From: a virus
DNA: 64,000 nucleotides
Reading direction: 5' to 3' (one strand)
IMG/VR virus record: IMGVR_UViG_3300035565_000044
Coordinates: 36,523-100,522 of that record
A program made the position numbers and the translations under genes. A model generated the notes under the pieces. The model worked only from the letters and a program-made list of their open reading frames with translations. It ran no database searches and was not told where the DNA came from. Positions 2,586 through 40,658 of the stretch are shown here, piece by piece; the stretch's first letter is position 1; each line of letters opens with the position of its first letter.

Positions 2586-2645
2586 ACTCGTTACGTCACG
2601 TCAAGTTACGGGGCAAAGCGTCAAGACACGATACGATGCATCATG
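2586..2645 (-). repeat. Pentamer array A (12 units), candidate guide RNA
   Basis: CATGA TGCAT CGTAT CGTGT CTTGA CGCTT TGCCC CGTAA CTTGA CGTGA CGTAA CGAGT. Confidence 0.8.
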
Positions 2646-2712
2646 GAAACATAATACTAGAGGGAAATGGATGGGGTCCACTCCCCTCTAGTACGGCCAC
2701 GGTTCTCTACAG

Positions 2713-4353
2713 TTAGAGAACGTGATGGGCAATCTTCTCTACTATTTCCTTCAATGCCTTGAGCTCGTCATCTACGTTCGAGCTCTTATCGAGCATGGCT
2801 GTAAACTGACGACCAGCATGCTGATTAGGAGACACAGTCTCCGCATCACCGCCACTGGCGAACTCATGATGATGCTTCATTCCGATAGCTGCATCAGCAA
2901 TGTCTTGACCGATCAGTACAGAACGACCATCCATGATAGCGCTCAGCTTGGCGGACTTGCAAACCTCAGCAATAGTAGCTGGAGTGAAGCTATTCATGAT
3001 GCGAACTGCGTCAGAAATATCTTCACCATTCCCCAGAAGTTCACCAGAGAACGCCCGGATCATACGATCCATGGTCTTGGCGTCAGGCAAGCTAACGTTG
3101 ACGATAACGTCGAGACGCCCAGCGCGCCGAACAGCAGGTGTGATCTTTTCAGCGTGGTTCGTTGTAAATACGCTGATAATCTGGTCATTCTTGCTCAAAA
3201 CGCCGTCAAGCGTATTGAGAAGATCGTTCGTCAAATCTTGACCACGGTCATTCGTAACGCGGTCAATGTCTTCAACAAATACAAGGCAAGGCTGGAAACG
3301 CTTGGCAAACTCCAGGGTTTCACGAAGACCCTTAGGGTTATCAACCAGAATGAAAGTCCAACCGTTCTGCACAGCAAGGGCGGCGGCGGCGCGTCCGGTA
3401 AGAGACTTACCCATGCCGTATTTGCTGCTGAGAAGAACCTTGCGGCTCAAACTAATTCCAGCCTTAACGCACTCAACGCGCTTACGGATTGGAGTGAAGA
3501 GAGACATATTCAACAGACGAGTAACGTCTTCGTTGAAAATCAAATCATCAACACTGATGCCGCTAACGTCAATAAACTTGGGCTCGCTTCCCTCGATAAT
3601 GTTACCATTACCGTTGATGGAAAGGCGCAACGCCTTGGCCTTGTAGATAGACTCGCTGGCGATAAGCTTTTTCGTAAGAGCGATGAGGTCAAGAACGGCC
3701 TTGCGGTCCTTCGTCTTAACTTCAGCGTTCACATAGAATGAAAACTTTCCTGTACGACGATCCCTATCAAATCCAGTAGTGACGTTTCCGTCAATGCCAG
3801 GGAGATCGTAACGTCCAACCGGAACCATCACAGAGTCTTCTGGCTTATGGCTCAACTGCACGGTGCGCCATTCAGGCTTAACCTTGACAGGTCCGAAGAA
3901 ACCCTGGACAGTGTACGACTTAACGTCGCTAAGGTGATAAGTCTGACGCAGAGCCTTCACGAACGCCACAGCGGCGTCATAGGGATATGCGTCAAAATAC
4001 TCTTCAACTTCACACTCTTCGTTCTGCGCCCTAGCATGGTCAGCGAGAATCTTGGATGCGGCTTCCGAGGTCATCTTAATCGGAAGTCCAGGAAGCGTAA
4101 TGCCCTTGCTGTCCATGTCATGGACGATAGCAGGTTCAACCTTGTTCCACAGCATTTCCGCAAATACAGCCTTATCGCTGTCGGGAAGAGCGTCGTAAAA
4201 AGCGCTGGCGTCAGTGTGGACGCCGTTGGCGTGTCCATTAGAAAATGAATTTGCCGCAGAGGCCATAGTATTAATGTTTGCCACTCCAACTTTCCTTTCG
4301 TTACCGTACTTCTTATTCAGTCTTTCAATGATCTGAGCGTCGGTTTCAGCCAT
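2713..4353 (-). CDS. AAA+ ATPase
   Basis: Walker A-like SKYGMGKS, Walker B VFVEDID, SRH TTNHAEKITPAVRRAGRLD. Confidence 0.9.
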   Translation of the reverse strand: MAETDAQIIERLNKKYGNERKVGVANINTMASAANSFSNGHANGVHTDASAFYDALPDSDKAVFAEMLWNKVEPAIVHDMDSKGITLPGLPIKMTSEAASKILADHARAQNEECEVEEYFDAYPYDAAVAFVKALRQTYHLSDVKSYTVQGFFGPVKVKPEWRTVQLSHKPEDSVMVPVGRYDLPGIDGNVTTGFDRDRRTGKFSFYVNAEVKTKDRKAVLDLIALTKKLIASESIYKAKALRLSINGNGNIIEGSEPKFIDVSGISVDDLIFNEDVTRLLNMSLFTPIRKRVECVKAGISLSRKVLLSSKYGMGKSLTGRAAAALAVQNGWTFILVDNPKGLRETLEFAKRFQPCLVFVEDIDRVTNDRGQDLTNDLLNTLDGVLSKNDQIISVFTTNHAEKITPAVRRAGRLDVIVNVSLPDAKTMDRMIRAFSGELLGNGEDISDAVRIMNSFTPATIAEVCKSAKLSAIMDGRSVLIGQDIADAAIGMKHHHEFASGGDAETVSPNQHAGRQFTAMLDKSSNVDDELKALKEIVEKIAHHVL

Positions 4354-4370
4354 GGATCACTTTCTCCTCT

Positions 4371-4399
4371 TGTCTATCCGAACCGGATGCTTTCGTCAA
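4371..4399 (-). promoter_or_regulatory. Sigma70-type promoter with ATCCG-N3-CGGAT operator
   Basis: TTGACG-17-TAGACA; palindrome at 4376-4388. Confidence 0.65.
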
Positions 4400-4428
4400 C
4401 CACTAATTTGCAGAAAATTCGTTAATAA

Positions 4429-4782
4429 TTAGTTAACATGAGCCATTGGCGGCGGAGCTAACCAGAACCCTGTTTCCTCCATAAAATTGTCCCGCTGCTC
4501 AAGCGTCGCATGACAACGGACCAGGACAGCGCACTGTTTATATCTAGCATCAAATGCGTAAACTCTGCTGATGCCCATCCTATGGCGCAAGGCGGCCTCG
4601 AAAAACGTTCCTAGGCTTGCCTTAGACAGATTGAGAGACCTATGCGGCCTCCCGTCTCTGGGGTATTCTCCAGCGTCCCAAGGGAATTGGCCATAGACGT
4701 TTGGATTGTATTTGTTTCCAATCTCTATGGCTCTTTCGATTTCGGCGCTGAATTTCTTATTTAAAGTTTCTTGAATGGACAT
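4429..4782 (-). CDS. Hypothetical protein
   Basis: 117-aa ORF immediately downstream of array B. Confidence 0.5.
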   Translation of the reverse strand: MSIQETLNKKFSAEIERAIEIGNKYNPNVYGQFPWDAGEYPRDGRPHRSLNLSKASLGTFFEAALRHRMGISRVYAFDARYKQCAVLVRCHATLEQRDNFMEETGFWLAPPPMAHVN

Positions 4783-4783
4783 A

Positions 4784-4838
4784 AGACGTTGCGTTATGTT
4801 GTGATGCGAGACGTAACGGCGAGTTACGATACGACGTG
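4784..4838 (-). repeat. Pentamer array B (11 units), candidate guide RNA
   Basis: CACGT CGTAT CGTAA CTCGC CGTTA CGTCT CGCAT CACAA CATAA CGCAA CGTCT; fills the intergenic gap. Confidence 0.8.
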
Positions 4839-4841
4839 GTG

Positions 4842-5144
4842 TTACTCAGGCGGGCGCCATCCTTCTTTGGTAAGCGCCGCCATAGCCAATCTAGCGTACT
4901 CTTCAGCTAAAACTCTACATCCATCAATGACATCTTCACCACGGTAATGGATATCTGGCCTGGACCTTGGGCATAATTCGCATGTTTTCTTATCTCCAAT
5001 CTGTCCATTGTTGCGGCATAAATGCCTACACATGGTCCAGGTTAAGAGATCACTCGGGCGTGGTTGCCTGCACATGTCCCGGATCGTTATCGGGATGAAT
5101 TCCTCTTTCGTCTTCGTCATTGAGATATTCCTCAAGGATAACAA
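4842..5144 (-). CDS. Small Cys-rich hypothetical protein
   Basis: CxxxC and CxxC motifs. Confidence 0.5.
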   Translation of the reverse strand: MLSLRNISMTKTKEEFIPITIRDMCRQPRPSDLLTWTMCRHLCRNNGQIGDKKTCELCPRSRPDIHYRGEDVIDGCRVLAEEYARLAMAALTKEGWRPPE

Positions 5145-5280
5145 TACCTTTACGTAGAGAAGCGGCGGCTACGTCTGTTTTGCAGCCGTTGAATGTAGAA
5201 CCACGCCCACACTGAGATAGCATGGTGGCTAATTTTCTAATTTTGGTTAAATCTTCTTGAGAGAAGTGGCTTTGCGGCAT
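5050..5280 (-). CDS. Hypothetical protein (start moved to MPQSH)
   Basis: The upstream extension of the ORF is array C plus a parS site. Confidence 0.4.
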   Translation of the reverse strand: MPQSHFSQEDLTKIRKLATMLSQCGRGSTFNGCKTDVAAASLRKGIVILEEYLNDEDERGIHPDNDPGHVQATTPE

Positions 5281-5281
5281 T

Positions 5282-5297
5282 TGTTCCACGTGAAAAT
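5282..5297. promoter_or_regulatory. parS-like site abutting the 3' end of array C
   Basis: TGTTCCACGTGAAAAT. Confidence 0.65.
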
Positions 5298-5355
5298 ACG
5301 TTGCGTTATGATGCGGAGAGATACGATGCGCCACGTGACGTCAAGTTGCGCTGCG
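5296..5355 (-). repeat. Pentamer array C (12 units), candidate guide RNA
   Basis: CGCAG CGCAA CTTGA CGTCA CGTGG CGCAT CGTAT CTCTC CGCAT CATAA CGCAA CGTAT. Confidence 0.85.
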
Positions 5356-5357
5356 TC

Positions 5358-5394
5358 ATCCGATTCAGATAGTCCACCTAGCGGGAGGAGTCAA
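5358..5394 (-). promoter_or_regulatory. Promoter and operator directly upstream of array C
   Basis: TTGACT-17-TATCTG; ATCCG-ATT-CAGAT at 5358-5370. Confidence 0.6.
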
Positions 5395-5959
5395 CCCTCA
5401 AAAATTGTCCACACCCCCTTTCAAAAAAAGTCCAACATGTTACGTTTTCGTATTGACTTCCAACCGGGCGCGTTGTAAAATTTTTACTATGCTGCTATTG
5501 GCAGGCCCAGACAGAGATAACTCCCTAAAATCGAAGAATATCGCAACCAGATAGGTGAAAACCTTCCTGGTTTTCCGTGTTTATCACTCATTTGGTTAAA
5601 AATCGATGCCAGGACAGAATGTATGGATTGCTTCCATTTTTTCTGAAGCAAACGGCCATGCGCAGAATCATCTAGACTTCGGCGCCGCGAATCGTTTAAG
5701 GTCCGGAAACGAACAAAGGCCGGTGCTCCCTGAGAAAGAGCAACCGGCCTTCAAAAAGCATAAATCTGAACAGTGCCCCTCGCAAGAGCAATTCAGAAAG
5801 GAACTTTAGAAACCAAGCTTGGGCTATCTAGCTTCAGCTAAAGGCGGCTTTTGCCGTTCCAGGCGCCAACTTTACTTCTGGCGTCAACCAATGTCCGCTC
5901 CGAACGCGTCAGGTCGCCTTGACGTGTAACGGACCTATGCGCTCCAGTCAAGGAAAAAT

Positions 5960-7321
5960 ATGACAAACTTTAAAAATAGCGTTGCCGTCGCCCCTCTCGC
6001 CAACCATGAGCTGGAGAAGGCGCTGCTCAGCTCCATACTTAACACCCCTGATATATTTGATAAAATTGGGGACTCTATCCTCCCTGAATTCTTTAGCTCC
6101 CCCCTCCACCGGGCTCTGTACACGCGCCTGTCTGCGTTCCTTATGCGGGGAGAGCGGGTCAATCCACTCTTGCTGACTAAAGATATGAATGATGAAAGTA
6201 AGAAAGAGGTAAAGGAAATATCTGATTACCACTCAGATGGTTCTCTTGCCGAAAGTAACCTGGAAGCCCTTCGGGAGCTATGGCAAAGGCGCGAGCTCCA
6301 GAGAATGTGCGATGAGGGAGCGGCGCTTGCTTCTACGGACATGGCACCTGAAGCGTTGATCAACAAGCTTGAGGAGAAATTATATAAAATAGCTATTCCC
6401 GTGGAAAGCGAAATGGTTTCTTCTGCTCAAGCTTATAAAGAGCTTATGGATGAAATTAAGGCGCGTGTTGATAAGGCTAATGAGACTTTTCCCCGCACTC
6501 CCATTCTCCCAGGTCTAAGAAGTGGCTTCGAACAGCTAGATGACATGTTAGGTGGCCTCCAAGAAGGACACTGTATACTTCTTGGAGCTCGTCCGTCTAT
6601 GGGAAAAACGGCCTTATTAGGGAACATATCCCATAACGTAGCTGCTGCTGGAGACCCTGTTGGATTTATAACCTATGAAATGACTGTTGAGCAGTTACTC
6701 TTACGGGCGGCGGCGTCTGAGGCAAGTGTTAGCTCAGACGCACTCAACCGTGGAGACCTCAGCGATCCACAACTTATCAAGTTCCAAGAAGATTCTGGTT
6801 GCTTGGCGCATCTCCCCATACACTACGTATACAACCCAGGTAACATTGACAAGCTACTGACAGTCATGAGGAAGCTTGTTAGAGTTAAGAAATGCAAGCT
6901 TATCATCATAGATTACGTTAATCTTATACCTGGAGGTATAGGAAGAGATGCTACAGAGAAGCTTGGAAACATCTCTGCTTCTCTGAAAATGGCGGCTGGA
7001 CGCCTTGGAATTCCAATTATCATAGCTTGTCAGCTCAATAGAAACCTAGAGTCTAGAGACGACCAAAGACCACAGCTCTCTGATCTAAAGCAGTCTGGTA
7101 ATCTAGAACAGGATGCTGACGCTGTTATTTTTCTTCACAGAGAAATATACTTTGTTGAGCGTAGGCGCCCAGATGTTTCTGATCCAAAATTTTCAGCTTG
7201 GCAGGCTGATTGCAACAGATGGCGTGGAAGGGCTGAGATCCTTCTTAGAAAAAACCGCCATGGCCGTATAGGAGAATCCGAAATAAACTTTAACGAGTCC
7301 ACCACCAAATTCTCTAATTGA
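5960..7321 (+). CDS. dnaB: Replicative DNA helicase DnaB-like
   Basis: GARPSMGKT, IIIDYVNL, QLNRNLESR, RPQLSDLKQSGNLEQDAD and KNRHG motifs. Confidence 0.97.
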   Translation: MTNFKNSVAVAPLANHELEKALLSSILNTPDIFDKIGDSILPEFFSSPLHRALYTRLSAFLMRGERVNPLLLTKDMNDESKKEVKEISDYHSDGSLAESNLEALRELWQRRELQRMCDEGAALASTDMAPEALINKLEEKLYKIAIPVESEMVSSAQAYKELMDEIKARVDKANETFPRTPILPGLRSGFEQLDDMLGGLQEGHCILLGARPSMGKTALLGNISHNVAAAGDPVGFITYEMTVEQLLLRAAASEASVSSDALNRGDLSDPQLIKFQEDSGCLAHLPIHYVYNPGNIDKLLTVMRKLVRVKKCKLIIIDYVNLIPGGIGRDATEKLGNISASLKMAAGRLGIPIIIACQLNRNLESRDDQRPQLSDLKQSGNLEQDADAVIFLHREIYFVERRRPDVSDPKFSAWQADCNRWRGRAEILLRKNRHGRIGESEINFNESTTKFSN

Positions 7322-7385
7322 GAAAAATAAGAGAAAAATAAGAAGAACATAAGAATTGATCTTCTTTCTCACACAGTTTAAAATA

Positions 7386-7416
7386 AAAAAAGGAGGCTGT
7401 AAGCAAGCCTCCTTTT
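7386..7416. terminator. Intrinsic terminator-like hairpin
   Basis: AAAAAAGGAGGCT...AGCCTCCTTTT. Confidence 0.6.
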
Positions 7417-7454
7417 AATAAAGAATAGAAACCCTAACCCATAAGGGACTTCCT

Positions 7455-8807
7455 ATGGCCGATTCTACTGCACAAAAAAATAATGTCAATAAGTTTTTGC
7501 CAGAGTACGAATCACAGAGTGTTTTCCGCTCAGACGGGGCTGACTACGCATACACACTGGTATCTAACAGACTGCTCCAAGACTCTGGCATTGATTGGGA
7601 AACCAGGGGAATGATTGCGGACCTGCTGAGCAGGCCAAAGGACTGGGATATTAGCGTTATGGGGCTGGTGGCTATGGCCAATGGCCTAACTAAGAAAGCA
7701 AAAATTTATAGGATGATAAACGCCGCTATGGCGAGTGGGTACATCCGACGCTTTACCAAGCGTGGCGCCGATGGACGTGTGGCTGGATATACGTATGTCG
7801 TATCAGACAACCCTTCTCGCCTTGCACTGCTTTCCGATTTTCAGGAAACTGCTAAGCAGGAAGCTGAAAAACAGCCACAACAAAGTAAAGATCTTAAAAA
7901 AGTAAAAACAGAAAAAAAATACACAGCGCCAACATCGCATTTCCCACATTTTGAAGAGGACATGGAAACAAAAACTCCCCCCATCCCCCAAGGGGGGAGT
8001 GGTCATTCCTGCGTCATGACCGTTCGTGAAAACGCCGAGCCTACAAGCCAACCATCCCAACCAACGTGGGAGGACGAGGAAGGGTTTGTTAACCATATTA
8101 AGATAGACGACTCCGCTACTCATTCCACTTCAATGGTATCCAGCCTTGAGGAAACGCCAGAAGCGGTGAAAGCTGAAACCCTGGTCCTGACGCCCCCAGA
8201 GCCAGAAGCGCCGTCTGTGACGCGTAAGAAGGCCAAGAAAGCGCCTTCTACGAAGCTGGACCACAATACCGACCCTGAGTTTGGAAAATTCTGGGATAAA
8301 TACCCAAATAAGAAAGGAAAGGCTGGCTCTTACGCCCATTGGAAGAGATTTTGTAAGGATAAACCGGAGCTGGCTTCTCTTTTGCCACAGGCCGCTATGG
8401 AATACGAGAGCGATCTTCGTAGGCAGTACAAGAGCGCTTCTGAGGCTAAGCAGCGCACCTGCTGTGGATATAATTGGTTCAACAAAGGTCTCCATGAGTA
8501 CTATGTTGATGTTATAATTGAGAGAAGTAAGCCACAGCCTGTGGAAAATTCAGAAAGCCAATTAGAGCAACGTGCACGCGAAGAACGCGAGAGAGTCGCT
8601 AGGGTAGCTGAAGCATGTTCTGAAACTAAGCGGGCTAGGTTCGTTGAATTCTTGTCAAAGGTGTACTCCAACGTTAAAGACGCATGGAACGAAAAGGTTA
8701 TTGAATATTTCCATGCCCGTAAGTACTGGGATATCGACGCCCTTATCCCAGTTGATGTGAAGAATGAAGCCAGGGCTGCTATCGGAGCTCCACTTCTGGC
8801 TTGTTAG
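7455..8807 (+). CDS. Phage replication initiator / replisome organizer
   Basis: N-terminal HTH (YTLVSNRLLQD...LLSRPKDW), FGKFWDKYPNKKGK motif, between helicase and primase. Confidence 0.75.
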   Translation: MADSTAQKNNVNKFLPEYESQSVFRSDGADYAYTLVSNRLLQDSGIDWETRGMIADLLSRPKDWDISVMGLVAMANGLTKKAKIYRMINAAMASGYIRRFTKRGADGRVAGYTYVVSDNPSRLALLSDFQETAKQEAEKQPQQSKDLKKVKTEKKYTAPTSHFPHFEEDMETKTPPIPQGGSGHSCVMTVRENAEPTSQPSQPTWEDEEGFVNHIKIDDSATHSTSMVSSLEETPEAVKAETLVLTPPEPEAPSVTRKKAKKAPSTKLDHNTDPEFGKFWDKYPNKKGKAGSYAHWKRFCKDKPELASLLPQAAMEYESDLRRQYKSASEAKQRTCCGYNWFNKGLHEYYVDVIIERSKPQPVENSESQLEQRAREERERVARVAEACSETKRARFVEFLSKVYSNVKDAWNEKVIEYFHARKYWDIDALIPVDVKNEARAAIGAPLLAC

Positions 8808-8822
8808 AAAGGAAAGATTACC

Positions 8823-9731
8823 ATGTCCGAAAGGTTTACCGACGCCGCCCGCTCCAGGGGCTTGCTTATACAAACTCCCATTGCTGATGGGACTGTTCAC
8901 CGAGTACGCACTTCTGACAAACCCCACTCCCGAAATGGCGCCTACGTGCTCTTTACCAACGGCCGGGGATGGTTCGAAAACCACGCTGACGGCATGGGGC
9001 GTCAGGAATACGCTCCAGAGTCTAAGGGCGGGCTCACAGCGGCCGAAAGGTATGAGGCTAGGATTAGGGTAGCCGAAGAGAGAAAGCGGTTCCAGGAGGC
9101 TCGCACAGAGGAATACAGAGCGGCTGCGCTGGAGGCCAAGGATCTCTTTGGCAGAGGGCTTATGGTCAAGGCGCATGGCTATCTGAGCGCTAAAGGCGTC
9201 CTCCCTCACGGACTGCGCGTTTTGGACGGCGCATTGCTTGTCCCAGTTCGAGACGCGAATGGGAACTGGCAGAGCTTGCAAAGGATTTTTTTAAATGGTT
9301 CAAAAACCTTTCTAAAGGGCGGGAGACTTGAAGGGGGGATGTTTGTCATTGGCAACATATACCCTGAAGGGGCGGCGCTGGTTGCCGAGGGTTACAGTAC
9401 TGGGGCGACTATCTATGAGGCGACGGGTTGCGCTACGATTGTGGCGTTCAACTGTGGAAACCTTACAAAGGTGGCTAGGTCCCTTAGGAAGAGATATCCT
9501 AAGTTGAAAATAATCATTTGCGCTGACGATGACCGGAACACGCGTGGAAACCCAGGACTGACAAGCGCGAGCGAAGCGGCTAGGGCGGTGGGTGGTTATC
9601 TGGCCAAACCAAATGTTAAAAAAGGTAGCGACTTCAACGATATGTGTGCTGAACTAGGCATGCAAGAGGTTAGGCGCGCGCTTATGGCGGTAGTGAAAGG
9701 TTGCATGGCAGAGCCGGATCGTGGTAAGTAG
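8823..9731 (+). CDS. TOPRIM-domain DNA primase (TraC-like)
   Basis: VAEGYSTG, IIICADDD and GSDFND motifs. Confidence 0.9.
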   Translation: MSERFTDAARSRGLLIQTPIADGTVHRVRTSDKPHSRNGAYVLFTNGRGWFENHADGMGRQEYAPESKGGLTAAERYEARIRVAEERKRFQEARTEEYRAAALEAKDLFGRGLMVKAHGYLSAKGVLPHGLRVLDGALLVPVRDANGNWQSLQRIFLNGSKTFLKGGRLEGGMFVIGNIYPEGAALVAEGYSTGATIYEATGCATIVAFNCGNLTKVARSLRKRYPKLKIIICADDDRNTRGNPGLTSASEAARAVGGYLAKPNVKKGSDFNDMCAELGMQEVRRALMAVVKGCMAEPDRGK

Positions 9732-9740
9732 GAGCATTAA

Positions 9741-9800
9741 CGTTTCGCCTCGTAACGCATCATAACACGCCTCTCCTCTTCGCACCATAACGTAACGTTT
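9741..9800 (+). repeat. Pentamer array D (12 units), candidate guide RNA
   Basis: CGTTT CGCCT CGTAA CGCAT CATAA CACGC CTCTC CTCTT CGCAC CATAA CGTAA CGTTT. Confidence 0.85.
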
Positions 9801-9811
9801 CATGTGAAACA
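9796..9811. promoter_or_regulatory. parS-like site overlapping the last unit of array D
   Basis: CGTTTCATGTGAAACA. Confidence 0.7.
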
Positions 9812-9848
9812 ATGCGCTACCTTGACAAAATCGTTGAGATAGCGCATT

Positions 9849-10235
9849 GTGCTTTTGTATGCAAAATTGAAAGGGATGAATATGTCTGAAGGGAATCAGT
9901 ACAACTCTGGCGCCCGACCACGGGCTAACAGACTTTTACTCGGAAAGTTATACGAAAAGACTAGTCAGAGTGGACAAAAGTATTTTCAAGGCGTTCTTGG
10001 ATTTCTAAAAGTCCTTGTTTTTCATGATGATAACGCGGAAGCGGGCAACGAATGGAATTTTTTCGTTGTAGAACGTGATCCTTCAGAAACTAAGCCTCGT
10101 CAGATTAGTGGTCCACCTCAGCACCAGCCCAACGCTGTAGGCCAAGGCGGCGGATATGGCGCTCAGACGGCCCCCCGCCCCATACGCCAGCCGCGACAGT
10201 TGCCTCCAGAAGGTGGGAGCAATGACCCTTTCTAA
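9849..10235 (+). CDS. Putative ssDNA-binding protein
   Basis: GKLYEKTSQSGQKYFQG beta-rich core, Gly/Gln/Pro tail ending DPF like SSB tips. Confidence 0.55.
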   Translation: MLLYAKLKGMNMSEGNQYNSGARPRANRLLLGKLYEKTSQSGQKYFQGVLGFLKVLVFHDDNAEAGNEWNFFVVERDPSETKPRQISGPPQHQPNAVGQGGGYGAQTAPRPIRQPRQLPPEGGSNDPF

Positions 10236-12268: not shown

Positions 12269-12275
12269 CTTAATT

Positions 12276-12415
12276 CAGTGGAGTGGCTAGATTTCCGATT
12301 ACAACGATAGCTCAGTTGGTAGAGCAACAGACTTCATATCTGTAAGTCGTAGGTTCAAACCCTACTCGTTATCCCGTAAGGGGTAATCCATCGTAAATCG
12401 TTTTTCCCTCCACTG
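12276..12415 (+). ncRNA. Y RNA-like 3 carrying a non-permuted tRNA cloverleaf (UCA at the anticodon position)
   Basis: Stem CAGTGGAG/CTCCACTG; D arm GCTC-AGTTGGTA-GAGC; ACAGA-CTTCATA-TCTGT; T arm GTAGG-TTCAAAC-CCTAC; no CCA end. Confidence 0.8.
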
Positions 12416-12425
12416 CTTTAAACAG

Positions 12426-12462
12426 GCGCCGGTTCCTTCGCAAGAGGGGATCGGCGTTTTTT
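12426..12462 (+). terminator. Intrinsic terminator after the Y RNAs
   Basis: CGCCGGTTCCTT/AGGGGATCGGCG stem followed by T6. Confidence 0.8.
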
Positions 12463-12481
12463 GTTTGTAATGCGTAATTTA

Positions 12482-12536
12482 CGTCTCGCTTCATAGCGTG
12501 TCGTGACGTGCCGCAACTCACCGTAACGTAACGTCT
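12482..12536 (+). repeat. Pentamer array E (11 units), candidate guide RNA, in the Ro60 leader
   Basis: CGTCT CGCTT CATAG CGTGT CGTGA CGTGC CGCAA CTCAC CGTAA CGTAA CGTCT. Confidence 0.85.
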
Positions 12537-12553
12537 TGTAGAAAGGAAAGAAA

Positions 12554-13960
12554 ATGGCTCGTACTAATACTAGGACCAGAGCGCCACGCCCTCTGACGCA
12601 TGAAGGCGCTCCAGCCGATAGGATCACAAAAGAGCAAGAGTTGCGCCGCTCTGTGTCTTGCTGCCTGCTTTGGGAGAATGAATTCTATGAAAGCGGTGAA
12701 GACATTGCTAGCCGCATCAGGCGTCTCGCGCTGGAATGTTCTCCTCAATTTGTGTCTAATCTTGCTATTGATGTTCGCAATCGTCTTCACCTTCGTCACG
12801 TTCCTCTTTGGCTGCTTTGCGCTTTGGCTAAAACTGGAACTGGAATTCCGGGGCTTGTGGGGAATACTGTAGCACAAACCATCCAACGCCCAGACGAAAT
12901 TCCTGAGCTTTTGGCGCAGTATTACAAGGCCAATGGCGTTGCTATTAAGGATAAGGGCGGAAAGATCAACAAGATCAAGATGCCTAAGCAATTCAAGAAT
13001 GGTATCGCGCGAGCCTTCACTAAGTTCAACGAGTACTCGCTGGATAAGTGGAACAAAGACGGCGATATCTCCTTGAAATACGCCATGCGCGGCGTCCATC
13101 CAAAGCCAAAGGATGAGGCTCAGGCTCAGTTGTGGGCTAAGCTTTTGGGTAAGGAAGATAAGGAAACTGGCAAGTCTCAGAAGCTTAAGACGGCAGATAC
13201 AGTCATGTCCGCCTTGAGCGCTGGAAAAGAAAAGAAAACAGCAGAAGATAAGAAAACTGTTTTCGAGCGCCAGTTGCGTGAAGGAAAGATTGGATATTTC
13301 GCGTTATTGAAGAACTTGCGCGGGATGGTTGATGCTGGCGTTGACAGGCAGCTCGTTATTGACGCATTGCGCGCTAGGAAGGGAGACAAGGGAATTTTGC
13401 CGTTTCGCTATGTTTCCGCTGCGCGGGCGGCGCCAACGTATGAACCATATGTTGATGAAGCTCTTCAGCACGCGATTAAGAGCAGCAGGGAACTTCCAGG
13501 GCATACTTGGGTGCTTGTTGACGTTAGCGGCTCCATGGACGCCAGTATCTCTGCAAAGAGTGATCTTAGCCGGATAGACGCCGCTGCGGCTCTGGCGTCT
13601 CTGATTCACGGAGACAGAACAGTTATTACGTTCAGCAATGAAATAAAAGTTGTTCCAAGTCGCCACGGTATGGCTGGAATTGAGGCTATTCTCAAGAGCC
13701 AGATTCATAGCGGTACTGAGATGGGAAGGGCCATAAAGTATGTGAATGATCGCGCCAAGCCCCAAGATCGGCTTATCGTGATCACTGACGAACAGAGCGG
13801 GGATGTCGTCCCTGATCCAGTTTGCCAGAACGCATACGTCATAAATGTTGCGTCCTACCGCAATGGCGTCAGTTACGGCCATGGATGGAACCATATTGAC
13901 GGTTGGAGCGAAGCCGTGATAGATTACATTCATGAGCATGAGGCTACGCTTAAATTGTAG
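12554..13960 (+). CDS. rsr: Ro60/Rsr-like TROVE-domain RNA-binding protein with C-terminal VWA
   Basis: THEGAPA, LLWENEFYESG, VHPKP, ALLKNLR, LPFRY, VDVSGSM and VITDEQS motifs; adjacent Y RNAs. Confidence 0.95.
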   Translation: MARTNTRTRAPRPLTHEGAPADRITKEQELRRSVSCCLLWENEFYESGEDIASRIRRLALECSPQFVSNLAIDVRNRLHLRHVPLWLLCALAKTGTGIPGLVGNTVAQTIQRPDEIPELLAQYYKANGVAIKDKGGKINKIKMPKQFKNGIARAFTKFNEYSLDKWNKDGDISLKYAMRGVHPKPKDEAQAQLWAKLLGKEDKETGKSQKLKTADTVMSALSAGKEKKTAEDKKTVFERQLREGKIGYFALLKNLRGMVDAGVDRQLVIDALRARKGDKGILPFRYVSAARAAPTYEPYVDEALQHAIKSSRELPGHTWVLVDVSGSMDASISAKSDLSRIDAAAALASLIHGDRTVITFSNEIKVVPSRHGMAGIEAILKSQIHSGTEMGRAIKYVNDRAKPQDRLIVITDEQSGDVVPDPVCQNAYVINVASYRNGVSYGHGWNHIDGWSEAVIDYIHEHEATLKL

Positions 13961-15612: not shown

Positions 15613-16215
15613 GTGAAGATTTGTACAGTCATGCTTGAGGGCATTTCCCATTACTCTCAATCTCGCATGCATTCAGAGCCAGCGTTGGAACAGGAAAGCG
15701 CTGACGAGTACGCCAAGCGCACAGCCCTAGACCATTTGCATTTCGACAGCAAAGGGCATGTGTTTATCCCCCCTATGTCTATCAAGCAAAGCATTGATAA
15801 CGCTGCGAAATATATGCAGCAAAAGGTTCCTGGAAAGGGACAGGCGACATATACAAAGCATTTTAAAAGCGGATTGGCGGTTGTTGAGCCTCTTATGCTT
15901 TTTGACAGTGAAGGAAACCCTGTCATGAAGAGCGCATCCCCCGTTGAAAAACTATGGCTCAACTCCGATGGAGTCAGGGGAGGCGGAAAGCGCGTATGGA
16001 AGTATTGCCCATATATCCCTTCTGGATGGACAGCCGAGCTTCAGGCTCATATTCTTGACGACACCATAGGCGAAGAAGTTTTTTTAAATACTCTCGTGAA
16101 CGCAGGAAGGTTTATTGGGCTTGGAAGGTTCCGCCCCGCTAGTGGGGGATACTATGGACGCTTCACATATAAGCCTGATAGCGTCAATTGGGAAGTTCTT
16201 AGAAACTTCTTGTAA
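15613..16215 (+). CDS. Stand-alone RAMP (Cas7-like RRM-fold) protein
   Basis: N-terminal strand KICTVMLEGISH, FIPPMSIKQSIDNAA (cf. Cas7-group IPGSSLKG), C-terminal Gly-rich loop AGRFIGLGRFRPASGGYYGRF; strong AGAAAGGAAAG RBS. Confidence 0.8.
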   Translation: MKICTVMLEGISHYSQSRMHSEPALEQESADEYAKRTALDHLHFDSKGHVFIPPMSIKQSIDNAAKYMQQKVPGKGQATYTKHFKSGLAVVEPLMLFDSEGNPVMKSASPVEKLWLNSDGVRGGGKRVWKYCPYIPSGWTAELQAHILDDTIGEEVFLNTLVNAGRFIGLGRFRPASGGYYGRFTYKPDSVNWEVLRNFL

Positions 16216-16224: not shown

Positions 16225-16755
16225 ATGAAAATAGAAGACGAAGACGGTAAGTATAATTATTACGCCGATATCTATGTTATACGTGATTTGTTTTCCAAGG
16301 TGGAGATTGGGGATACAATAACGTTTTCTCAAATAGAAGAAGTTATGAAGAAACCCGTTGACGGCTCTGTCTACTCCGCTATTCATCAGGCAAAGATTTT
16401 GCTTGAAAGCGAAGATAGAATGGTGTTTGGCAACGTGCGCAGCGTAGGATACAAGCGGCTAACCGATAGCGAAATTATAGAATCTTTCGAGCTCGACCGC
16501 CGCCGCCTCCGCCGAAGGGCTCAAAGGGCTGCGCGCAGATTGACTAATATAAATGACTACGCCAGCCTCAGCAATGTGCAGAAGATAACGCATCAGGCGG
16601 GGCTAGGCGTCCTAGCGGCAATATCTAGAGTGGCTATGCCTAGGACGGTTGAGGACGTTAAGAAGTCCGTAGCTACGCTGGAGGCTCCTACTAAGTCAAC
16701 TCATGCCCCGATTGGGAAGATTTTGGATATCATGAGGGGAAACGTAAAAGATTAG
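16225..16755 (+). CDS. Basic, possible winged-helix partner of the RAMP protein
   Basis: 9 nt after RAMP stop; GDTITFSQIEEV helix, VFGNVRSVGYKRL wing-like hairpin, Arg-rich helix. Confidence 0.55.
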   Translation: MKIEDEDGKYNYYADIYVIRDLFSKVEIGDTITFSQIEEVMKKPVDGSVYSAIHQAKILLESEDRMVFGNVRSVGYKRLTDSEIIESFELDRRRLRRRAQRAARRLTNINDYASLSNVQKITHQAGLGVLAAISRVAMPRTVEDVKKSVATLEAPTKSTHAPIGKILDIMRGNVKD

Positions 16756-33055: not shown

Positions 33056-33071
33056 TGTTTCATGTGAAACG
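33056..33071. promoter_or_regulatory. parS-like site
   Basis: TGTTTCATGTGAAACG. Confidence 0.7.
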
Positions 33072-34567: not shown

Positions 34568-34583
34568 GGTTTCACGTGAAACA
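34568..34583. promoter_or_regulatory. parS-like site
   Basis: GGTTTCACGTGAAACA. Confidence 0.75.
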
Positions 34584-34684
34584 GGGCTAAAAATATTCAG
34601 TCTTGACAGAAAATGCCAAGAAACACCGGGAAAACACTTTTTCCTTGACGAAAATACCCTGTTTGTGTACTAGATGCCAAAACG

Positions 34685-34999: not shown

Positions 35000-37900
35000 T
35001 GAGAATAATCCTCATACTGATGATCATGCTTCTCACCGGCTGTCGAGACTACGAGAAGACCTACGCCCCTGACGGCTCCAAAGAGTTTCGCGTGAAATGC
35101 GGCGTACCCGATGAAGACGCCTGTGACATACGCGCTGGCCAACTTTGCAAGAAAGGCGGATACCAAATATCTAACCATCGCGACTCCGAGGGAAACGTCA
35201 TCGTCACATGCAATCAGAGGAGACGCCGGTGAACCATTACATCGAGCTCGCCACAGGCGTCCTTCACGGCGTCCTGTTCACCTTAACCACCATCGCCACG
35301 CCCGTCTACCAGGAGCATGGGCTCCACGCCACGAACTACGACTTTGGCCTGCTCGCCATATCATTCAGCGTACTGATATTCGTTAACGCAACCATGGGAT
35401 GGGACTATGAACCCTACTGACAGAAGAGAACTGGAAACGGCCTTGGCGTTGCTATCTTCTATGGTTCAAGGCGCTAAGTTAGCCCTTGACGGCGCGGTGC
35501 GAACCGGGGACCTCAAGGACACACAAGCCTTCGCTGATAAGGCGCATACCGCCGCTGGCCTGTTCCTGGAACTCGTTGACGCTATAGTGGAGGGAAAATG
35601 ATAGCAGAGTCCGATAAGTTATACAACAAGCTTCTTATTTTTATCGCAGAAGAAGCTGGTTCTAGCGCAATTTCCCTTGTGCGCGCCTTCTCCAAGGCGA
35701 CGAACATGGCGCTGAGGATACTTCCTGAAGACAAACAGCCCACGGCTCTTAAACTGGCCAAGTCCGAAGTAGAGTACAAAGTTAAGGACGAGGGCGGCCT
35801 TGCTGAGGTGTTATTGAAAGAAAGTGGACACCTATGAGCCTGAACGAAAACGAAGCCATAGCCCTGGAGCGAATAGCCTTGAGCGCCCGCAACCTGCTTA
35901 ACGCCGTAGCGCAGAACCCCAACCTCCTAGGCGTCGGCCTCAAACGCGAGCTGGCCAATCTGGGGCAGGACATTGGTTTCCTGGATATGATCCGCAAGGT
36001 GGAGCCTGTCCCCACGGCCAAAGATGTCATAGCCAAGGTCATTGACGACAATTGGGCTATTGGCTCTGGTTCTGTAGACAAATTAGCTGGTGATATTCAC
36101 GAAGCGCTTATGGAGGCGGGATACCTATGACGGCTAAATTAATAAAGGACAATCTGGACGGATGGAAGGGCCATGCGGCGCTCTATTCCGTAGAAAACCC
36201 GCCCCGCCCTGAGTGCTCCATGCTCAAGGCGGGGATATGCGACCATTGTCTAACTGAGCCTCCCGCCTATATCATCATAAGCTCCGTGGAGAAGGCCATA
36301 GCCAGCGCCCACGGCGGCCCTGAGGCTAAGGCGTTTCCCGCCAATGAGCATGGGGAGCCAGAGTGCATGGCGACGTTTGCCGAAGTCATAGGAACGCAGA
36401 GCCACCAGGAGCTTCTGCAAAAGATGGGGTTAGCATGGAAACAATAGTCCTTCTCCAGCTTGAGAAGCATGTGCGTAATCTTATGAAGGCGGTTTACGCA
36501 AGCAATGGCGAGACGAATTTCAGACATGCCGCATCTTATCTTATGGTTATAGAGCAGGATTTGAGCGCTCTCACCGCCATTAGAGAAGTGAACGAAGCTA
36601 TGGACGTCACAGACGCCGAAAACCCGTTGATAAGGAAGCATAATGTCGGAGAAGAATGAACTTGGATTTGTCGAGGTTCCGTATCCTGAGGTTCAACTTC
36701 TCATCGAAAACGGGGCCAGACGCCTTTGCCTTATATTGGAGCAGAGAGAGCCGTGGAATGATATCAAAGACCCTGAGGTAAGGGCTTTGGTTAACAGCCT
36801 TGGTTTAGTATTTGAATGTCTTGATAAATGGAGGGCTAAGTGAGCGATACGGAAAAGGGACTTCTCATGGCGCTGGAGTCTGACGCCAAGGCCATGGTCC
36901 GAGAACTTGAGAATGTTCTTATATGCAATCCTCTCATCTATGTTTCTATGCAAGAAAATACAGAAATTATTCATAGAATGGTTATGATTAAGGCCAAATT
37001 ATCTAAGTTGGAGACTGAACGTCAGGTGCAGACGGATAAAGATAGCATTTCTGATATTATCCAGGATAATTTCGATAATTACGGAATTCTAGACTCAGAC
37101 GATGAAGAAGATAATTCAACGCGTCGAGACCTTATAGCTTCTATATTATATGACCTTGAGAAGGTAGGCTTTGCATTTGTCAGGGTCAAAAGGACAGACT
37201 TCGTTGAAGAAGGGCCTGTGCTCCCAGATGGAGGGGTGACGGATTGATAAGCAAGGAAGCCTTGGAGTGGTGGGCGCACTGTAACAAGGTAGGAGCTCAA
37301 CATATGAGCAACTATTTGGCGCAGCAGCAGAATGCGTATGCGTTCAGCAATTACAATCTTCAAATGCAGGAGTTGCAGAATGTTTATATGAATAAACTCC
37401 AAGGTCTTTCTCCAGTTCATTACCACTACCTGACAACTGAGACAAATAGGGAGAAGAACACATCCCATTGGGAAGAGATGACGGAACTGCTGCTGTCGCT
37501 TCCCCAGCCTCCAGCGCCGCCTCCTAAGAAATGTTTCTGGAGAAAATGGTTGTGAAATTCACGCTCAAACGTAAGCCGAAGTATGAAGCCTGGGGCGTCT
37601 CCGTAGATGGAGAAGAACCAATGGTTTACTTCAAGGACAAACCCTTAGCCAAGAAATGGCTTGGCTACTGCACCGGGCGCAGAGGCGCTAATATGCGGAA
37701 ACACCCAATGAGGAGAGAGGTTATATGACTGGATTTACAACCAATGGTTATATTGAAGCTCTTGAGGATCGTATAGGCATGCTTAAAGAGATCATTAAGA
37801 TTAAGGACCATAAGATAGCGGAGATGGAGGTCAACGCCAATCCCGCTACGTCGCGCATGGCTCTGGTGTTTGAGGAGCCAGATGAGAAAATGCTTATTGC

Positions 37901-38336
37901 GGCGGCAAACGCCCTCATGACATTCAAGGACTTGGAGCAAACTCCATACAGCGAGATAGCTAGGAAGGTATGGAAAGCTATGTTAGAGGCGAGTCAGTGA
38001 ATGAGATAGATGATTATTTTTCATTTCTCATTCTTGCATTCCTGGTACTGTCGTTCTTTGTCTACGCGCTAATAAATATGAGGAGATGATGAAAAAGATA
38101 ATCCCTGGAGACGAATTATTAGACGCCATTTGGGAAGCTATATATAAAGAGTTGTGCGCTTGTGGCGTCACCCATCTTACGAGTGATCTTGAGGTTGTAG
38201 ATGGCCTCAGCTTTGACCAGGATCAGGCCCATGCCGTCGCCAGGGCCGCATGGGACGCATCTAAGCAGCATCTTGAGGACGTTATAGCGCCTCTGGCGAA
38301 AAGGATCGTGGCTCTGGAGCGCGATAGGGACGAGTA

Positions 38337-38642
38337 ATGCTGTCAATCATTGTGGCTATCTGCATTGTTATCATCTTAATAGCAATATGGAGCAAGTGAT
38401 GCAGGGGCATTTAACGTTGGCGTTTATAATTGGCATGGTCATAGCAATTCTATTCTTATCGAGGACAAGATGACAATGGAGTCAGCGATTGTTGGCGTCG
38501 GCCTGTGCGTCGCAATTTTAGTTATCACTTGGCTATTAGCGAGGATATGATGGAAATAGATGCAAACACCATAGCCGGTTTTGCTGGAATGGCGTTATTC
38601 GCCATCGGATTGATAGTGTGTATTTATATATGTCTAAAATAG
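38337..38642 (+). CDS. Four tandem single-helix membrane microproteins (38337-38399, 38399-38473, 38470-38550, 38547-38642)
   Basis: Manual translation: 20-31 aa hydrophobic peptides with overlapping stop/start codons. Confidence 0.65.
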
Positions 38643-39115
38643 GAGGAAGAAATGGATGGAAGCAGCTTGCCTCTGCTCTTCTTGAGCGCAGCGGTGATAA
38701 TTCTAGCGCTACTGATGATGAAGAAAAGGTAGTCCAGGCTAGATATAAGACAGAAGCGGCGTTGAGAGACGCCGTTTCTAGGCAGAGAAGGGAGCACACG
38801 GCGTTAATCCATCGCCATATGGAGGAAATGAACCAGATACAGCAGGAATGCGAAAAGGTAGGACACGAATTTATTTATAGCAATAATGCGTTTCTTGGCC
38901 GCTGTAGGTGGTGTGGAGCGCCAGAGAAAGGAAAGAAAGGGTAATGTTAGTCGCGTTGTTAATTATAATATTGGTTTGCGCAGCGGCGCTCTATACAAGC
39001 GGGGGCTGCTGGAAATGACGGAAGCGCAGAAGGCGGCTATCAGGAGACAGATAGAAGAGCTTGAGGTTCAGGTGGAAGTCCTTAAGCTTAACGTCACCAT
39101 ATGGCCGGGAGTGAA

Positions 39116-39131
39116 TGTTTCACGTGAAAGA
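39116..39131. promoter_or_regulatory. parS-like site (intragenic)
   Basis: TGTTTCACGTGAAAGA. Confidence 0.65.
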
Positions 39132-40501
39132 GATAGGGCTGAACGTGAGGGGTTCGAGAGGCAAATAGGGAAGATTAATCATTTGGTTTCATCCATCGAG
39201 CTTAGCATAAAGAATATGCTGCCCGTGGTTGAGAGAGAGCGCCCGCCCCACCCGGATTGCAGTGTGTGTGATGGCAATGGTTGGGTATGGGGAGGGGAGC
39301 GCGGGGAACAGCCTGAAAACTGCGAATGCGAAGACGCTTATGATGAGGAAAGATGCCCATAACATCTAAGGAAGCATTCTTATCGAAGCAAATAATGGAA
39401 GATAAAGGCCATGATTTGTTTCAGAAACAGTGGAAGCGCGGTTCCTCAGCCAGGACTAAGCGTCGCGCCACGGCAAAGCTCACAAGGCAGAAAGAATCTC
39501 TGGCGGAGGCGTTGGAGATCGTACAAGACGATAAGCGTCATGAAGAATTGATGAAGCGTATGGAGTTCATCAATAAAGAGTTGGAAAGGAACGAGTGTGA
39601 CTGAAGACCAAGAAAAGATAGCTATGCACCAGCTCCATCAAGCTTGCTGGGAGACTATCCTGGAAGTGAACGCTGTTCAGAAGGAACTCTGGAGCGCCAT
39701 ATACAATAATCTTTCCCCTGACTTCAATAAGATTATGCTGGCGGCAGGAGAAGCAGAGCGTAGGGTTATTTCTCTGCGCAAAATGGCTGAAGAGATGCGT
39801 GTTCAGGGGCTAGAAATCGATGCCGGATAATTTTAAGGATGTGGCGTATTCTCTTAGGGCGACTGCGGATAGGATATTCCAGCTTGCAGAAAGCATAGAG
39901 CGTAAAAAGCCAGAAAAGAATTTGGTTTCTTTAACATATGATCTAAATATGCTTGACGAAGAAATCAGTTCAGCTCTAAAGTCTGCAAGGTATCTTAGAG
40001 ATTGCGTTATGAGCGCAACGTATCCATATGTTATATCTGCACATGACTTCGGCTATAGTGGTAGACACAGCGTAGGATGCGTAACCTATGTTGCCAACGG
40101 AGGCGGTGGAGGAGGTGGATCATACACCGGGGGCAACGGACAGGCAATTGGTCTAAGCGGAGCAGGCGGCGGTGGCGGCACGTACTCGCCACAGACCACC
40201 GTCACAGTAACGACTATGCCGAAGCATCATACGCTGAGCGCAGAAGAGCTCTCTACTGCGTCCGCCAAAGCTCCAGAGGGTAGCGAAGCTACGCTTCCGC
40301 CAGACGCGCCGGGGACACGCTATCTTCGTCCTGGGTGGAAAGTTGAGGTTATAGACCTCACAGAGGTCGCGAAGGAAGCCGCAGCGCCATTGGCGATGGA
40401 CATGGCGGCTGAAGCCGTGGAGGAAACATCATACGGCTTGACGGATTGGGCGCTTAACGCCTATAAATGATCCGCGATGCAACGATAGCTTATGCTGAGA
40501 G

Positions 40502-40536
40502 AAAGCCCTGGGAAGCACGAGTCCTGGGGCTTTTTT
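40502..40536 (+). terminator. Intrinsic terminator
   Basis: GCCCTGGGA/TCCTGGGGC stem followed by T6. Confidence 0.75.
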
Positions 40537-40548
40537 GCGTTTAAGGGC

Positions 40549-40591
40549 TTGACGCCGTCCCCCCATAGCGCATATAACATCCGTATCGGAT
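40549..40591 (+). promoter_or_regulatory. Promoter and operator directly upstream of array F
   Basis: TTGACG-18-TATAAC; perfect ATCCG-TAT-CGGAT at 40579-40591. Confidence 0.7.
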
Positions 40592-40593
40592 GA

Positions 40594-40658
40594 TGTGTCG
40601 CACCGTAACTTGCCACAGCGCGCCGCTCCATAACGTCACATAACGCAACGCAACGAGT
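40594..40658 (+). repeat. Pentamer array F (13 units), candidate guide RNA
   Basis: TGTGT CGCAC CGTAA CTTGC CACAG CGCGC CGCTC CATAA CGTCA CATAA CGCAA CGCAA CGAGT. Confidence 0.85.

What the first reader, a model, noticed from the sequence alone, without database searches (positions are those of the whole stretch)
2586..40658. Six dispersed 55-65 nt pentamer arrays with constant triplet and variable dinucleotide: a possible non-contiguous guide code
Arrays at 2586-2645(-), 4784-4838(-), 5296-5355(-), 9741-9800(+), 12482-12536(+) and 40594-40658(+) total 71 units by hand count. Position 1 is C in 68, position 2 is never C, position 3 is a pyrimidine in 69, and positions 4-5 vary freely. All are intergenic, 11-13 units long, oriented with local transcription, and end CGY-AA-CGW-NT. 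The dinucleotide strings differ: A GA,AT,AT,GT,GA,TT,CC,AA,GA,GA,AA,GT; B GT,AT,AA,GC,TA,CT,AT,AA,AA,AA,CT; C AG,AA,GA,CA,GG,AT,AT,TC,AT,AA,AA,AT; D TT,CT,AA,AT,AA,GC,TC,TT,AC,AA,AA,TT; E CT,TT,AG,GT,GA,GC,AA,AC,AA,AA,CT; F GT,AC,AA,GC,AG,GC,TC,AA,CA,AA,AA,AA,GT. A fixed scaffold with variable content, polarity and constant length fits programmable guides better than slippage microsatellites.
Basis: partly seen in the sequence, partly recalled or inferred. Interest (0 to 1): 0.93.

Follow-up and report, generated by a model that had tools for sequence, protein, structure and literature searches.

The report
Phage VIPR guide RNAs, CGY type
The six five-letter-repeat arrays are real and are most likely guide RNAs of a VIPR system, a CRISPR-like phage weapon first described in 2026.

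Summary
Observation confirmed exactly: 71 units, position 1 is C in 68, position 2 is never C, and position 3 is a pyrimidine in 69. The whole 100.5-kb phage holds ten such arrays; shuffled sequence gives none.

The window encodes a Vipr protein at 15613-16215. A profile of its family matches the solved SUSP1 Vipr at E 2.8e-18, and its model has a Cas7-like RAMP fold. A winged-helix partner gene follows at 16225-16755.

The same gene pair sits among CGY-NN arrays in dozens of IMG/VR contigs. In those relatives the published rule (NN pairs, one base skipped) finds strong targets well above controls. The skipped base falls at the codon wobble position. Targets include a serine recombinase, an SNF2 helicase, a small terminase and rival vipr/vap genes.

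So these are VIPR vrRNA-type guides (bioRxiv 10.64898/2026.04.26.720920). Three features differ from the canonical system:
- Position 1 of the triplet is C, and the two residues that read that base in SUSP1 are also changed.
- There is no structured 3' tail.
- All ten guides lie away from vipr, mostly just before start codons.

No target of this phage's own guides was found, and expression is untested.

The scan has already found VIPR systems on many other genomes. It also noted these same arrays in an overlapping window of this genome.

The parts
2586..2645 (-). Array A, 12 units (two degenerate). A promoter-like site lies just upstream (2680-2651). It is followed by a tRNA-like sequence and tRNA-Met rather than an ORF.
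4784..4838 (-). Array B, 11 units. It lies between the stop codon of ORF 4842-5144 and the ATG of ORF 4429-4782, 1 nt before the ATG.
5296..5355 (-). Array C, 12 units. It follows a TTGACT-17-TATCTG promoter-like site and ends 15 nt before the ATG at 5280. A parS-like palindrome lies in between.
9741..9800 (+). Array D, 12 units. It starts 10 nt after the stop codon of the Toprim primase-like gene (8823-9731).
12482..12536 (+). Array E, 11 units. It lies between an intrinsic terminator (12424-12459) and the Shine-Dalgarno site and ATG of the Ro60/TROVE gene (12554-13960).
40594..40658 (+). Array F, 13 units (the first is degenerate). It follows a terminator and a TTGACG-17-TATAAC promoter-like site, and ends 5 nt before the ATG of ORF 40664-41065.
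15613..16215 (+). vipr: a 200-aa RAMP (Cas7-like) protein, the predicted binder of the CGY triplets.
   Evidence: Family profile against PDB 36pp 'SUSP1 Vipr protein', E 2.8e-18 over the whole length. AF2 pLDDT 95. Foldseek best hits are Cas7/Csm3, E 3e-8. phrog_4652.
16225..16755 (+). vap-like partner gene: 176 aa, an N-terminal winged-helix-like domain followed by long basic helices.
   Evidence: It directly follows vipr here and in 24 related loci. AF2 pLDDT 91 with a winged-helix-like order of helices and strands (H, E, H, H, E, E). There are only weak matches to winged-helix DNA-binding domains.

Best explanation
The arrays are guide-RNA (vrRNA) modules of a VIPR system.

Shown:
- The phage encodes a Vipr-family RAMP protein and a winged-helix partner.
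- The same gene pair is embedded among CGY-NN arrays in many uncultured phages.
- In those relatives, the NN dinucleotides of 9-13 consecutive units match DNA of other viral contigs with one base skipped per unit.

Inferred by homology to SUSP1 VIPR:
- One Vipr protomer binds each five-base unit and sequesters the C-G-Y triplet.
- The filament presents the NN pairs to double-stranded DNA.
- Binding represses transcription of a competing mobile element.

Inferred from relatives: the conserved last two or three units (CGYAA CGYAA CGWNT) do not pair with the target and act as a 3' handle.

Inferred from sequence: position 1 is C instead of G because the two residues that read G1 in SUSP1 (H17, D177) are replaced by near-invariant Ser17 and Arg172 in this clade.

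In this phage the ten guides are not next to vipr. They are transcribed as 5' leaders or intercistronic spacers of early and middle genes, and would have to be cut out or protected by Vipr.
For: (1) Six arrays in the window and ten in the genome, none in shuffles.
These hold 368 clean arrays with C 96%, G 79%, Y 99% and near-uniform positions 4-5.
(3) Unsupervised clustering of the ORFs around those arrays gave two families: vipr in 47 loci and vap in 42. They are adjacent in 24 loci, including this window.
(4) The vipr profile matches the solved SUSP1 Vipr at E 2.8e-18. The model has a Cas7/Csm3 fold.
(5) Test of the 1-nt skip rule on 1.1 Mb of these contigs: 30, 17 and 8 segments at score thresholds 15, 16 and 17. 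Controls (skip 0, 2, 3 or 4; reversed or shuffled unit order; letters swapped within each NN) gave 4-12, 1-4 and 0-2.
(6) The best hit matches 25 of 26 positions. The skipped base is at codon position 3 in all seven of the top eight hits that lie in an ORF. Both strands are hit. Arrays from three contigs converge on one serine recombinase gene, and several hit rival vipr/vap genes. The preprints report these same target features.
(7) Control: in the cultured Pseudomonas phage LESphi2, whose Vipr homologue keeps the His and Asp that read G1 in SUSP1, the same detector finds GGC-NN arrays, not CGY.
(8) NN composition of this phage's guide portions fits codon positions 1-2: +10.3 bits against a null of -11.1 +/- 5.9.
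(9) The arrays are not more structured than shuffles, z -0.4 to +1.9.
Against: - No target was found for this phage's own arrays. The best scores in its own genome equal the null.
- There is no exact 9-unit match in IMG/VR for arrays C and G2.
- The 8-unit hits for E and F extend no better than chance.
- Seven metagenome hits for array A lie in unrelated proteins, about what amino-acid composition predicts.
- There is no RNA evidence.
- The arrays are not adjacent to vipr.
- There is no conserved structured 3' tail like the SUSP1 pseudoknot.
- Array G1 is internally duplicated and of low complexity.
Confidence: 0.85

Rival explanations
1. The arrays are purely cis-acting leader elements. Vipr, or another oligomerising RNA-binding protein, coats the 5' leader and controls translation or stability of the downstream gene. 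There is no trans target.
For: Eight of the ten arrays precede an ORF, six of them ending 1-17 nt before its start codon. In relatives the distance from array end to start codon peaks at 10-19 nt (96 of 310). No trans target was found for this phage.
Against: Relatives' arrays have clear trans targets under the skip rule. Array A precedes tRNA genes, and array G4 is a promoter-array-terminator unit with no start codon after it. Free variation at NN is not needed for a cis operator.
Confidence: 0.07
2. The arrays are DNA-level binding sites (iteron-like) for the winged-helix partner protein or another DNA-binding protein, acting as roadblocks or origin elements.
For: The partner protein has a winged-helix-like domain. 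Some arrays lie just downstream of promoters.
Against: All arrays are strictly co-oriented with transcription on both strands. A 5-bp repeat is too short for one winged-helix domain per unit. The RAMP protein is homologous to a solved RNA-binding filament protein.
Confidence: 0.04
3. The arrays are operators for a TRAP-like ring protein (11-13 triplets spaced by 2 nt) that attenuates transcription or blocks translation.
For: 11-13 units of triplet plus 2-nt spacer mimic the TRAP site. One array is followed by a terminator.
Against: No TRAP-like gene turned up among the proteins scanned near the arrays. Relatives have arrays of up to 74 units, which does not fit a closed ring. The co-occurring protein is a RAMP.
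Confidence: 0.02
4. The arrays are decaying slippage microsatellites with no function.
For: Array G1 contains 10-nt tandem duplications.
Against: Decay would blur all five positions equally. Instead positions 1-3 are 79-99% conserved and positions 4-5 are near uniform across 368 arrays. The 3' end is conserved and the arrays are linked to one gene pair.
Confidence: 0.01

Closest known systems
VIPR type II of Escherichia phage SUSP1 (Vipr, vap1, GGY/NN vrRNAs; bioRxiv 10.64898/2026.04.26.720920, .720927, 2026.10.15.759431; PDB 36pp)
   Same: Homologous Vipr protein, followed by a DNA-binding-type partner gene. Arrays of 9-16 five-base units with a conserved triplet and free NN. The conserved part is at the 3' end. 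In relatives: 1-nt skip rule, wobble-phased targets on both strands, and targets that include recombinases and rival vipr genes.
   Different: The triplet is C-G-Y, not G-G-Y. The residues that read G1 (H17, D177) are Ser and Arg here. No pseudoknot tail was detected. No array flanks vipr: all ten are dispersed over 46 kb as leaders of other genes.
VIPR of the Pseudomonas fulva prophage clade (checked here on the cultured phage LESphi2)
   Same: A vipr homologue (28% identity) with pentamer arrays directly upstream.
   Different: Its arrays are GGC-NN, each with a shared tail, and they cluster beside vipr next to cI/cro. Its Vipr keeps the His and Asp.
Published alternative vrRNA repeats (NNNGG, YNNNG, NNNNG) and 'solo' vrRNAs
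   Same: CGY-NN written in the paper's register is YNNCG, which fits the YNNNG class. Guides away from vipr have precedent as solo vrRNAs.
   Different: Here position 1 is not free but is C in 96% of units. The figures and tables that would show whether this clade is already typed are not readable with these tools.
Class 1 CRISPR Cas7 backbone (Csm3, type VII Cas7)
   Same: RAMP fold, glycine-rich loop, one protomer per fixed number of guide bases.
   Different: No CRISPR repeats and no other cas genes. The period is 5 with only 2 pairing bases, not 6 with 5.
TRAP bound to the trp leader (11 triplets with 2-3 nt spacers)
   Same: The same arithmetic of triplet plus 2-nt spacer, 11-13 times, in mRNA leaders.
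   Different: Unrelated protein, and a filament rather than a ring. Here the spacers, not the triplets, carry the information.

Membership tests
VIPR system | Vipr protein: a minimal RAMP with an RRM core, a glycine-rich loop and a thumb | tested here: met
   The profile matches SUSP1 Vipr (36pp) at E 2.8e-18 over residues 1-181. The AF2 model has pLDDT 95. The top Foldseek hits are Cas7/Csm3 at probability 1.00. The loop GLGRFRP..GG..GRF is conserved.
VIPR system | Two-gene locus: vipr followed by an accessory vap gene with a DNA-interacting domain | tested here: met
   The 176-aa gene starts 10 nt after vipr. The same pair is adjacent in 24 loci. The model has a winged-helix-like order of helices and strands. 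Homology to a named vap type was not testable, and fold matches are weak (E 0.04 or higher).
VIPR system | vrRNA: 9-16 tandem five-base units with a conserved GGY triplet (or related consensus) and hypervariable NN | tested here: met
   The arrays have 11-13 units (17 in G1). The triplet is C[GAT]Y here and CGC in relatives, and NN is near uniform. The consensus is 'related', not GGY.
VIPR system | Arrays flank the vipr gene | tested here: not met
   There is no intergenic space around vipr-vap in this phage. The nearest array is 3.1 kb away. The feature is met in relatives such as L009 and L016. The preprint calls this typical rather than defining, and solo vrRNAs are published.
VIPR system | Invariable structured 3' tail (a pseudoknot in the SUSP1 clade) | tested here: inconclusive
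   Only the terminal units CGYAA CGYAA CGWNT are shared. Folds are no better than shuffles. Three arrays are followed by a short palindrome, and one by a terminator hairpin.
VIPR system | Targets follow the 1-nt skip rule | tested here: met
   Met for the CGY clade: there is an excess over seven kinds of control, and the best hit matches 25 of 26 positions. Not met for this phage's own ten arrays, for which no target was found.
VIPR system | vrRNAs expressed as discrete small RNAs that co-purify with Vipr | not testable with these tools
   No sequencing run was listed for this DNA.
CRISPR-Cas | A repeat-spacer array plus cas operon (Cas1/Cas2 or effector genes) | tested here: not met
   There is no direct-repeat and spacer architecture. 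The only RAMP stands alone with one partner gene.
TRAP-type attenuation | A TRAP (MtrB) ring protein and (G/U)AG triplets | tested here: not met
   The triplet is CGY. None of the 20 proteins scanned near the arrays gave a TRAP/MtrB Pfam match. Relatives' arrays of up to 74 units exclude a closed 11-mer ring.

The most novel reading that the evidence does not exclude
In this clade the guides are built into the leaders of the phage's own early and middle genes. Assembly of the Vipr filament on a nascent leader would then do two jobs. It would mature a trans-acting guide, and it would gate translation or stability of the gene that starts 1-20 nt downstream. VIPR would thus be wired into the phage's own expression programme. 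In addition, the Ser17/Arg172 pair would define a C-reading Vipr that is orthogonal to GGY systems.
Probability: 0.15. Interest if true: 0.7.

Novelty: new member of a known kind. Interest (0 to 1): 0.42.

Why it matters
The finding shows that a gapped guide code can be read from raw sequence alone. It places this uncultured 100-kb phage, probably of an alphaproteobacterium, among VIPR carriers.

The useful additions are three:
- A large clade whose scaffold triplet starts with C, together with a matching change in the two residues that read that base in the solved structure. This gives a testable rule for making mutually orthogonal VIPR systems.
- Independent computational support for the 1-nt skip rule, wobble phasing and recombinase or vipr targeting in a clade far from E. 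coli and Pseudomonas.
- An architecture in which every guide is a leader or spacer of another gene. This raises the question of how guides are cut out, and whether they also regulate those genes.

Tried and rejected
- TRAP-like ring operator, a Shine-Dalgarno substitute, Rho sites and primase sites were considered from the anatomy. They were dropped once relatives showed 8-74 units with ordinary Shine-Dalgarno sites after them.
- Megablast of 14 kb against cultured phages: no match.
- DnaB tblastn gave only distant hits, and DnaB-based related loci in IMG/VR gave none.
- The genome contigs motif scan was mostly single, scattered hits and microsatellites. A few alphaproteobacterial contigs had two arrays.
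- Self-targeting: the best scores equal the shuffled nulls at skip 0-2.
- Exact xNN scans of IMG/VR gave 0 hits for arrays C and G2. They gave 13 and 19 eight-unit hits for E and F, whose extensions are at chance.
- A metagenome scan for array A (10 units) gave 7 hits in non-homologous proteins, one of them a likely histidine-kinase C-terminus. The estimate from amino-acid composition is about 6, so they were rejected as targets.
- This phage's guides against 87 vipr/vap genes of relatives score at the null.
- Sequencing runs: none was listed, and no RNA holder was listed.
- A first k-mer test of the skip rule was swamped by low-complexity windows and by codon periodicity. It was redone with complexity filters and order-shuffled controls.
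- parS-like palindromes as a vrRNA tail: only 3 of 21 sites abut arrays, so they are a separate feature.
Full report
**1. The observation**

- 71 units in all
- position 1 is C in 68
- position 2 is never C
- position 3 is a pyrimidine in 69
- all six arrays end CGY-AA, CGW-NT

A mechanical scan of both strands at 9 of 11 units or better returns exactly these six places. The window is bases 36523-100522 of a 100,522-bp IMG/VR phage genome with direct terminal repeats. The whole genome has ten arrays, four of them just upstream of the window. First-order Markov shuffles give none at that threshold.

**2. Anatomy of the arrays**

All ten arrays are intergenic and point the same way as the next gene, on both strands. 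Their contexts are:
- B and D start right after the stop codon of the preceding gene.
- C, F and the out-of-window array G4 follow sigma-70-like promoters.
- E, F and G3 follow terminators.
- Six arrays end 1-17 nt before a start codon.
- A precedes a tRNA-like sequence and tRNA-Met.
- G4 is followed by a strong terminator hairpin, so it looks like a free-standing small RNA of about 110 nt.

The array regions themselves fold no better than shuffles, with z between -0.4 and +1.9. The downstream genes include an ERF recombinase, a Ro60/TROVE protein and small unknowns; the first gene after G4's terminator encodes a GcrA-like protein. My first working idea was a TRAP-like RNA operator.

**3. Relatives**

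No cultured phage is close. Many contigs had 2-6 matches. Re-scanning those loci gave 368 clean arrays of 8-74 units. Their composition is:
- position 1: C in 96%
- position 2: G in 79%
- position 3: C or T in 99%
- positions 4-5: close to uniform
- 3' end: conserved as CGCAA CGCAA CG(A/T)

The distance from array end to the next start codon peaks at 10-19 nt, usually with an ordinary Shine-Dalgarno site. So the length is not constant across the clade, and the arrays do not replace ribosome-binding sites.

**4. The linked genes**

I clustered all ORFs of those loci without prior assumptions. This gave two families that travel with the arrays: one of about 195 aa in 47 loci and one of about 172 aa in 42 loci. 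They are adjacent in that order in 24 loci. This window carries the pair at 15613-16215 and 16225-16755.

Pfam is blank for both proteins. PHROGs gives phrog_4652 of unknown function for the first protein, and only a borderline match (E 0.001) to phrog_5926, also of unknown function, for the second.

For the first family:
- A profile of it matches one solved structure, 36pp 'SUSP1 Vipr protein', at E 2.8e-18 over its whole length.
- The AlphaFold model (pLDDT 95) is most like Cas7/Csm3 RAMPs.
- The profile finds 2,948 cluster representatives at E of 1e-10 or better.

The second protein models as a winged-helix-like domain followed by long helices. It has only weak matches to winged-helix DNA-binding domains.

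**5. What is known**

Three 2026 preprints describe VIPR systems: a Vipr RAMP, an accessory vap gene and vrRNAs of 9-16 units. In these, a conserved GGY alternates with hypervariable NN, followed by a 3' tail. One protomer binds each unit and hides the triplet. The NN pairs read double-stranded DNA with one base skipped. Targets lie in coding sequences with the skipped base at the wobble position, on either strand. Natural targets are satellites, prophages and other VIPR systems, and the outcome is transcriptional silencing. The methods also mention alternative repeats (NNNGG, YNNNG, NNNNG) and solo vrRNAs away from vipr.

**6. Testing the rule in this clade**

I took the NN strings of all clean arrays and searched the 1.1 Mb of array-masked viral loci with 0-4 skipped bases. 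A complexity filter was applied.

| Search | Segments at score 15+ | at 16+ | at 17+ |
|---|---|---|---|
| Real guides, 1-nt skip | 30 | 17 | 8 |
| Controls (other skips, reversed order, three order shuffles, letters swapped within each NN) | 4-12 | 1-4 | 0-2 |

The details of the hits:
- The best pair matches 25 of 26 positions over 13 units: the array at L077 from base 2224 against L037:3666-3703.
- In all seven of the top eight hits that lie in an ORF, the skipped base is codon position 3, and both strands are used.
- The trailing AA-AA units do not pair.
- Arrays from three contigs converge on one serine recombinase gene, at L091:4082-4116.
- Two arrays of one contig hit an SNF2 helicase gene, and one hits a small terminase gene.
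- Several hit vipr or vap genes of other contigs.

This reproduces the published biology in a clade that uses CGY.

**7. Why C instead of G**

In SUSP1 the first G is read by H17 and D177. The profile alignment puts near-invariant Ser17 and Arg172 of this clade at those positions. SUSP1 has its own His and Asp there. The GGC-type Vipr of Pseudomonas phage LESphi2 keeps both residues as well, and has GGC-NN arrays beside the gene. The link between residue and base is an inference from three data points, not a demonstration.

**8. This phage's own guides**

No self-target exists above the null. The target searches gave:
- Exact 9-unit scans of IMG/VR for arrays C and G2: nothing.
- Eight-unit hits for E and F: they extend at chance level.
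- A 10-unit metagenome scan for A: seven hits in unrelated proteins, about the number that amino-acid composition predicts. I reject them.

The NN composition of the guide portions does resemble codon positions 1-2: +10.3 bits against a null of -11.1 +/- 5.9. This is weak support for coding targets. No sequencing run was listed, so expression and targets remain open.

**9. Verdict**

The thing is a VIPR system, which is a known kind, so I file it as a new member. Its notable traits are these:
- A strictly C-first triplet. In the paper's register this is YNNCG, probably within their YNNNG class.
- No detectable structured tail.
- All guides dispersed as leaders or spacers of other genes, none beside vipr.

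The scan has met VIPR systems in many other genomes. It also noted these same arrays and the RAMP gene in an overlapping window of this genome.

Noticed in passing
window 2500-2585 (-): Directly after array A lies a tRNA-like sequence with paired acceptor ends and an encoded CCA. ARAGORN did not call it. tRNA-Met (2337-2412) follows.
   Followed up: no
window 12301-13960 (+): A Ro60/TROVE plus vWA protein (12554-13960) is preceded by a cloverleaf with a UCA anticodon, which ARAGORN calls tRNA-SeC (12301-12375), and by a terminator. Array E sits between them. Earlier notes read Y RNAs here.
   Followed up: partly
whole genome, e.g. window 2260, 5282, 9796, 16754, 19601: There are 21 parS-like palindromes (TGTTTCACGTGAAACA with up to 3 mismatches) spread over the genome. 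Only three abut arrays (C, D, G2), so they are a separate feature of unknown role.
   Followed up: partly
L006:11867-11951 (-): Array G1, upstream of the ERF recombinase gene, has 17 units and internal 10-nt tandem duplications (CGTGGCGTAA three times, CGTTACATAT three times). It looks like recent slippage inside a guide.
   Followed up: no
L006:13130-15041: The phage carries an outer-membrane beta-barrel gene and a GcrA-like cell-cycle regulator gene. These point to an alphaproteobacterial host.
   Followed up: partly
L016:3603-4760; L009:5453-7789: Relatives hold non-coding blocks of more than 1 kb made of many consecutive CGC-NN arrays separated by T-rich spacers of about 25 nt. Single arrays reach 52-74 units, of which only 9-13-unit stretches match a given target.
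   Followed up: partly
L091:4082-4116: Guides from three different contigs (L037, L016, L077) converge on the same 35-nt site of a serine recombinase gene. This parallels the published targeting of a satellite's excision recombinase.
   Followed up: partly
L273:2457-2770 (Pseudomonas phage LESphi2, OQ594955.1): This cultured P. aeruginosa phage has three GGC-NN arrays upstream of an unannotated vipr homologue, next to its cI/cro region.
   Followed up: partly
window 9811-9889 (+): Between array D and the next gene lies a 25-codon ORF whose stop codon overlaps the ATG of the following gene (ATGTCTGA). It may be a coupled leader peptide.
   Followed up: no
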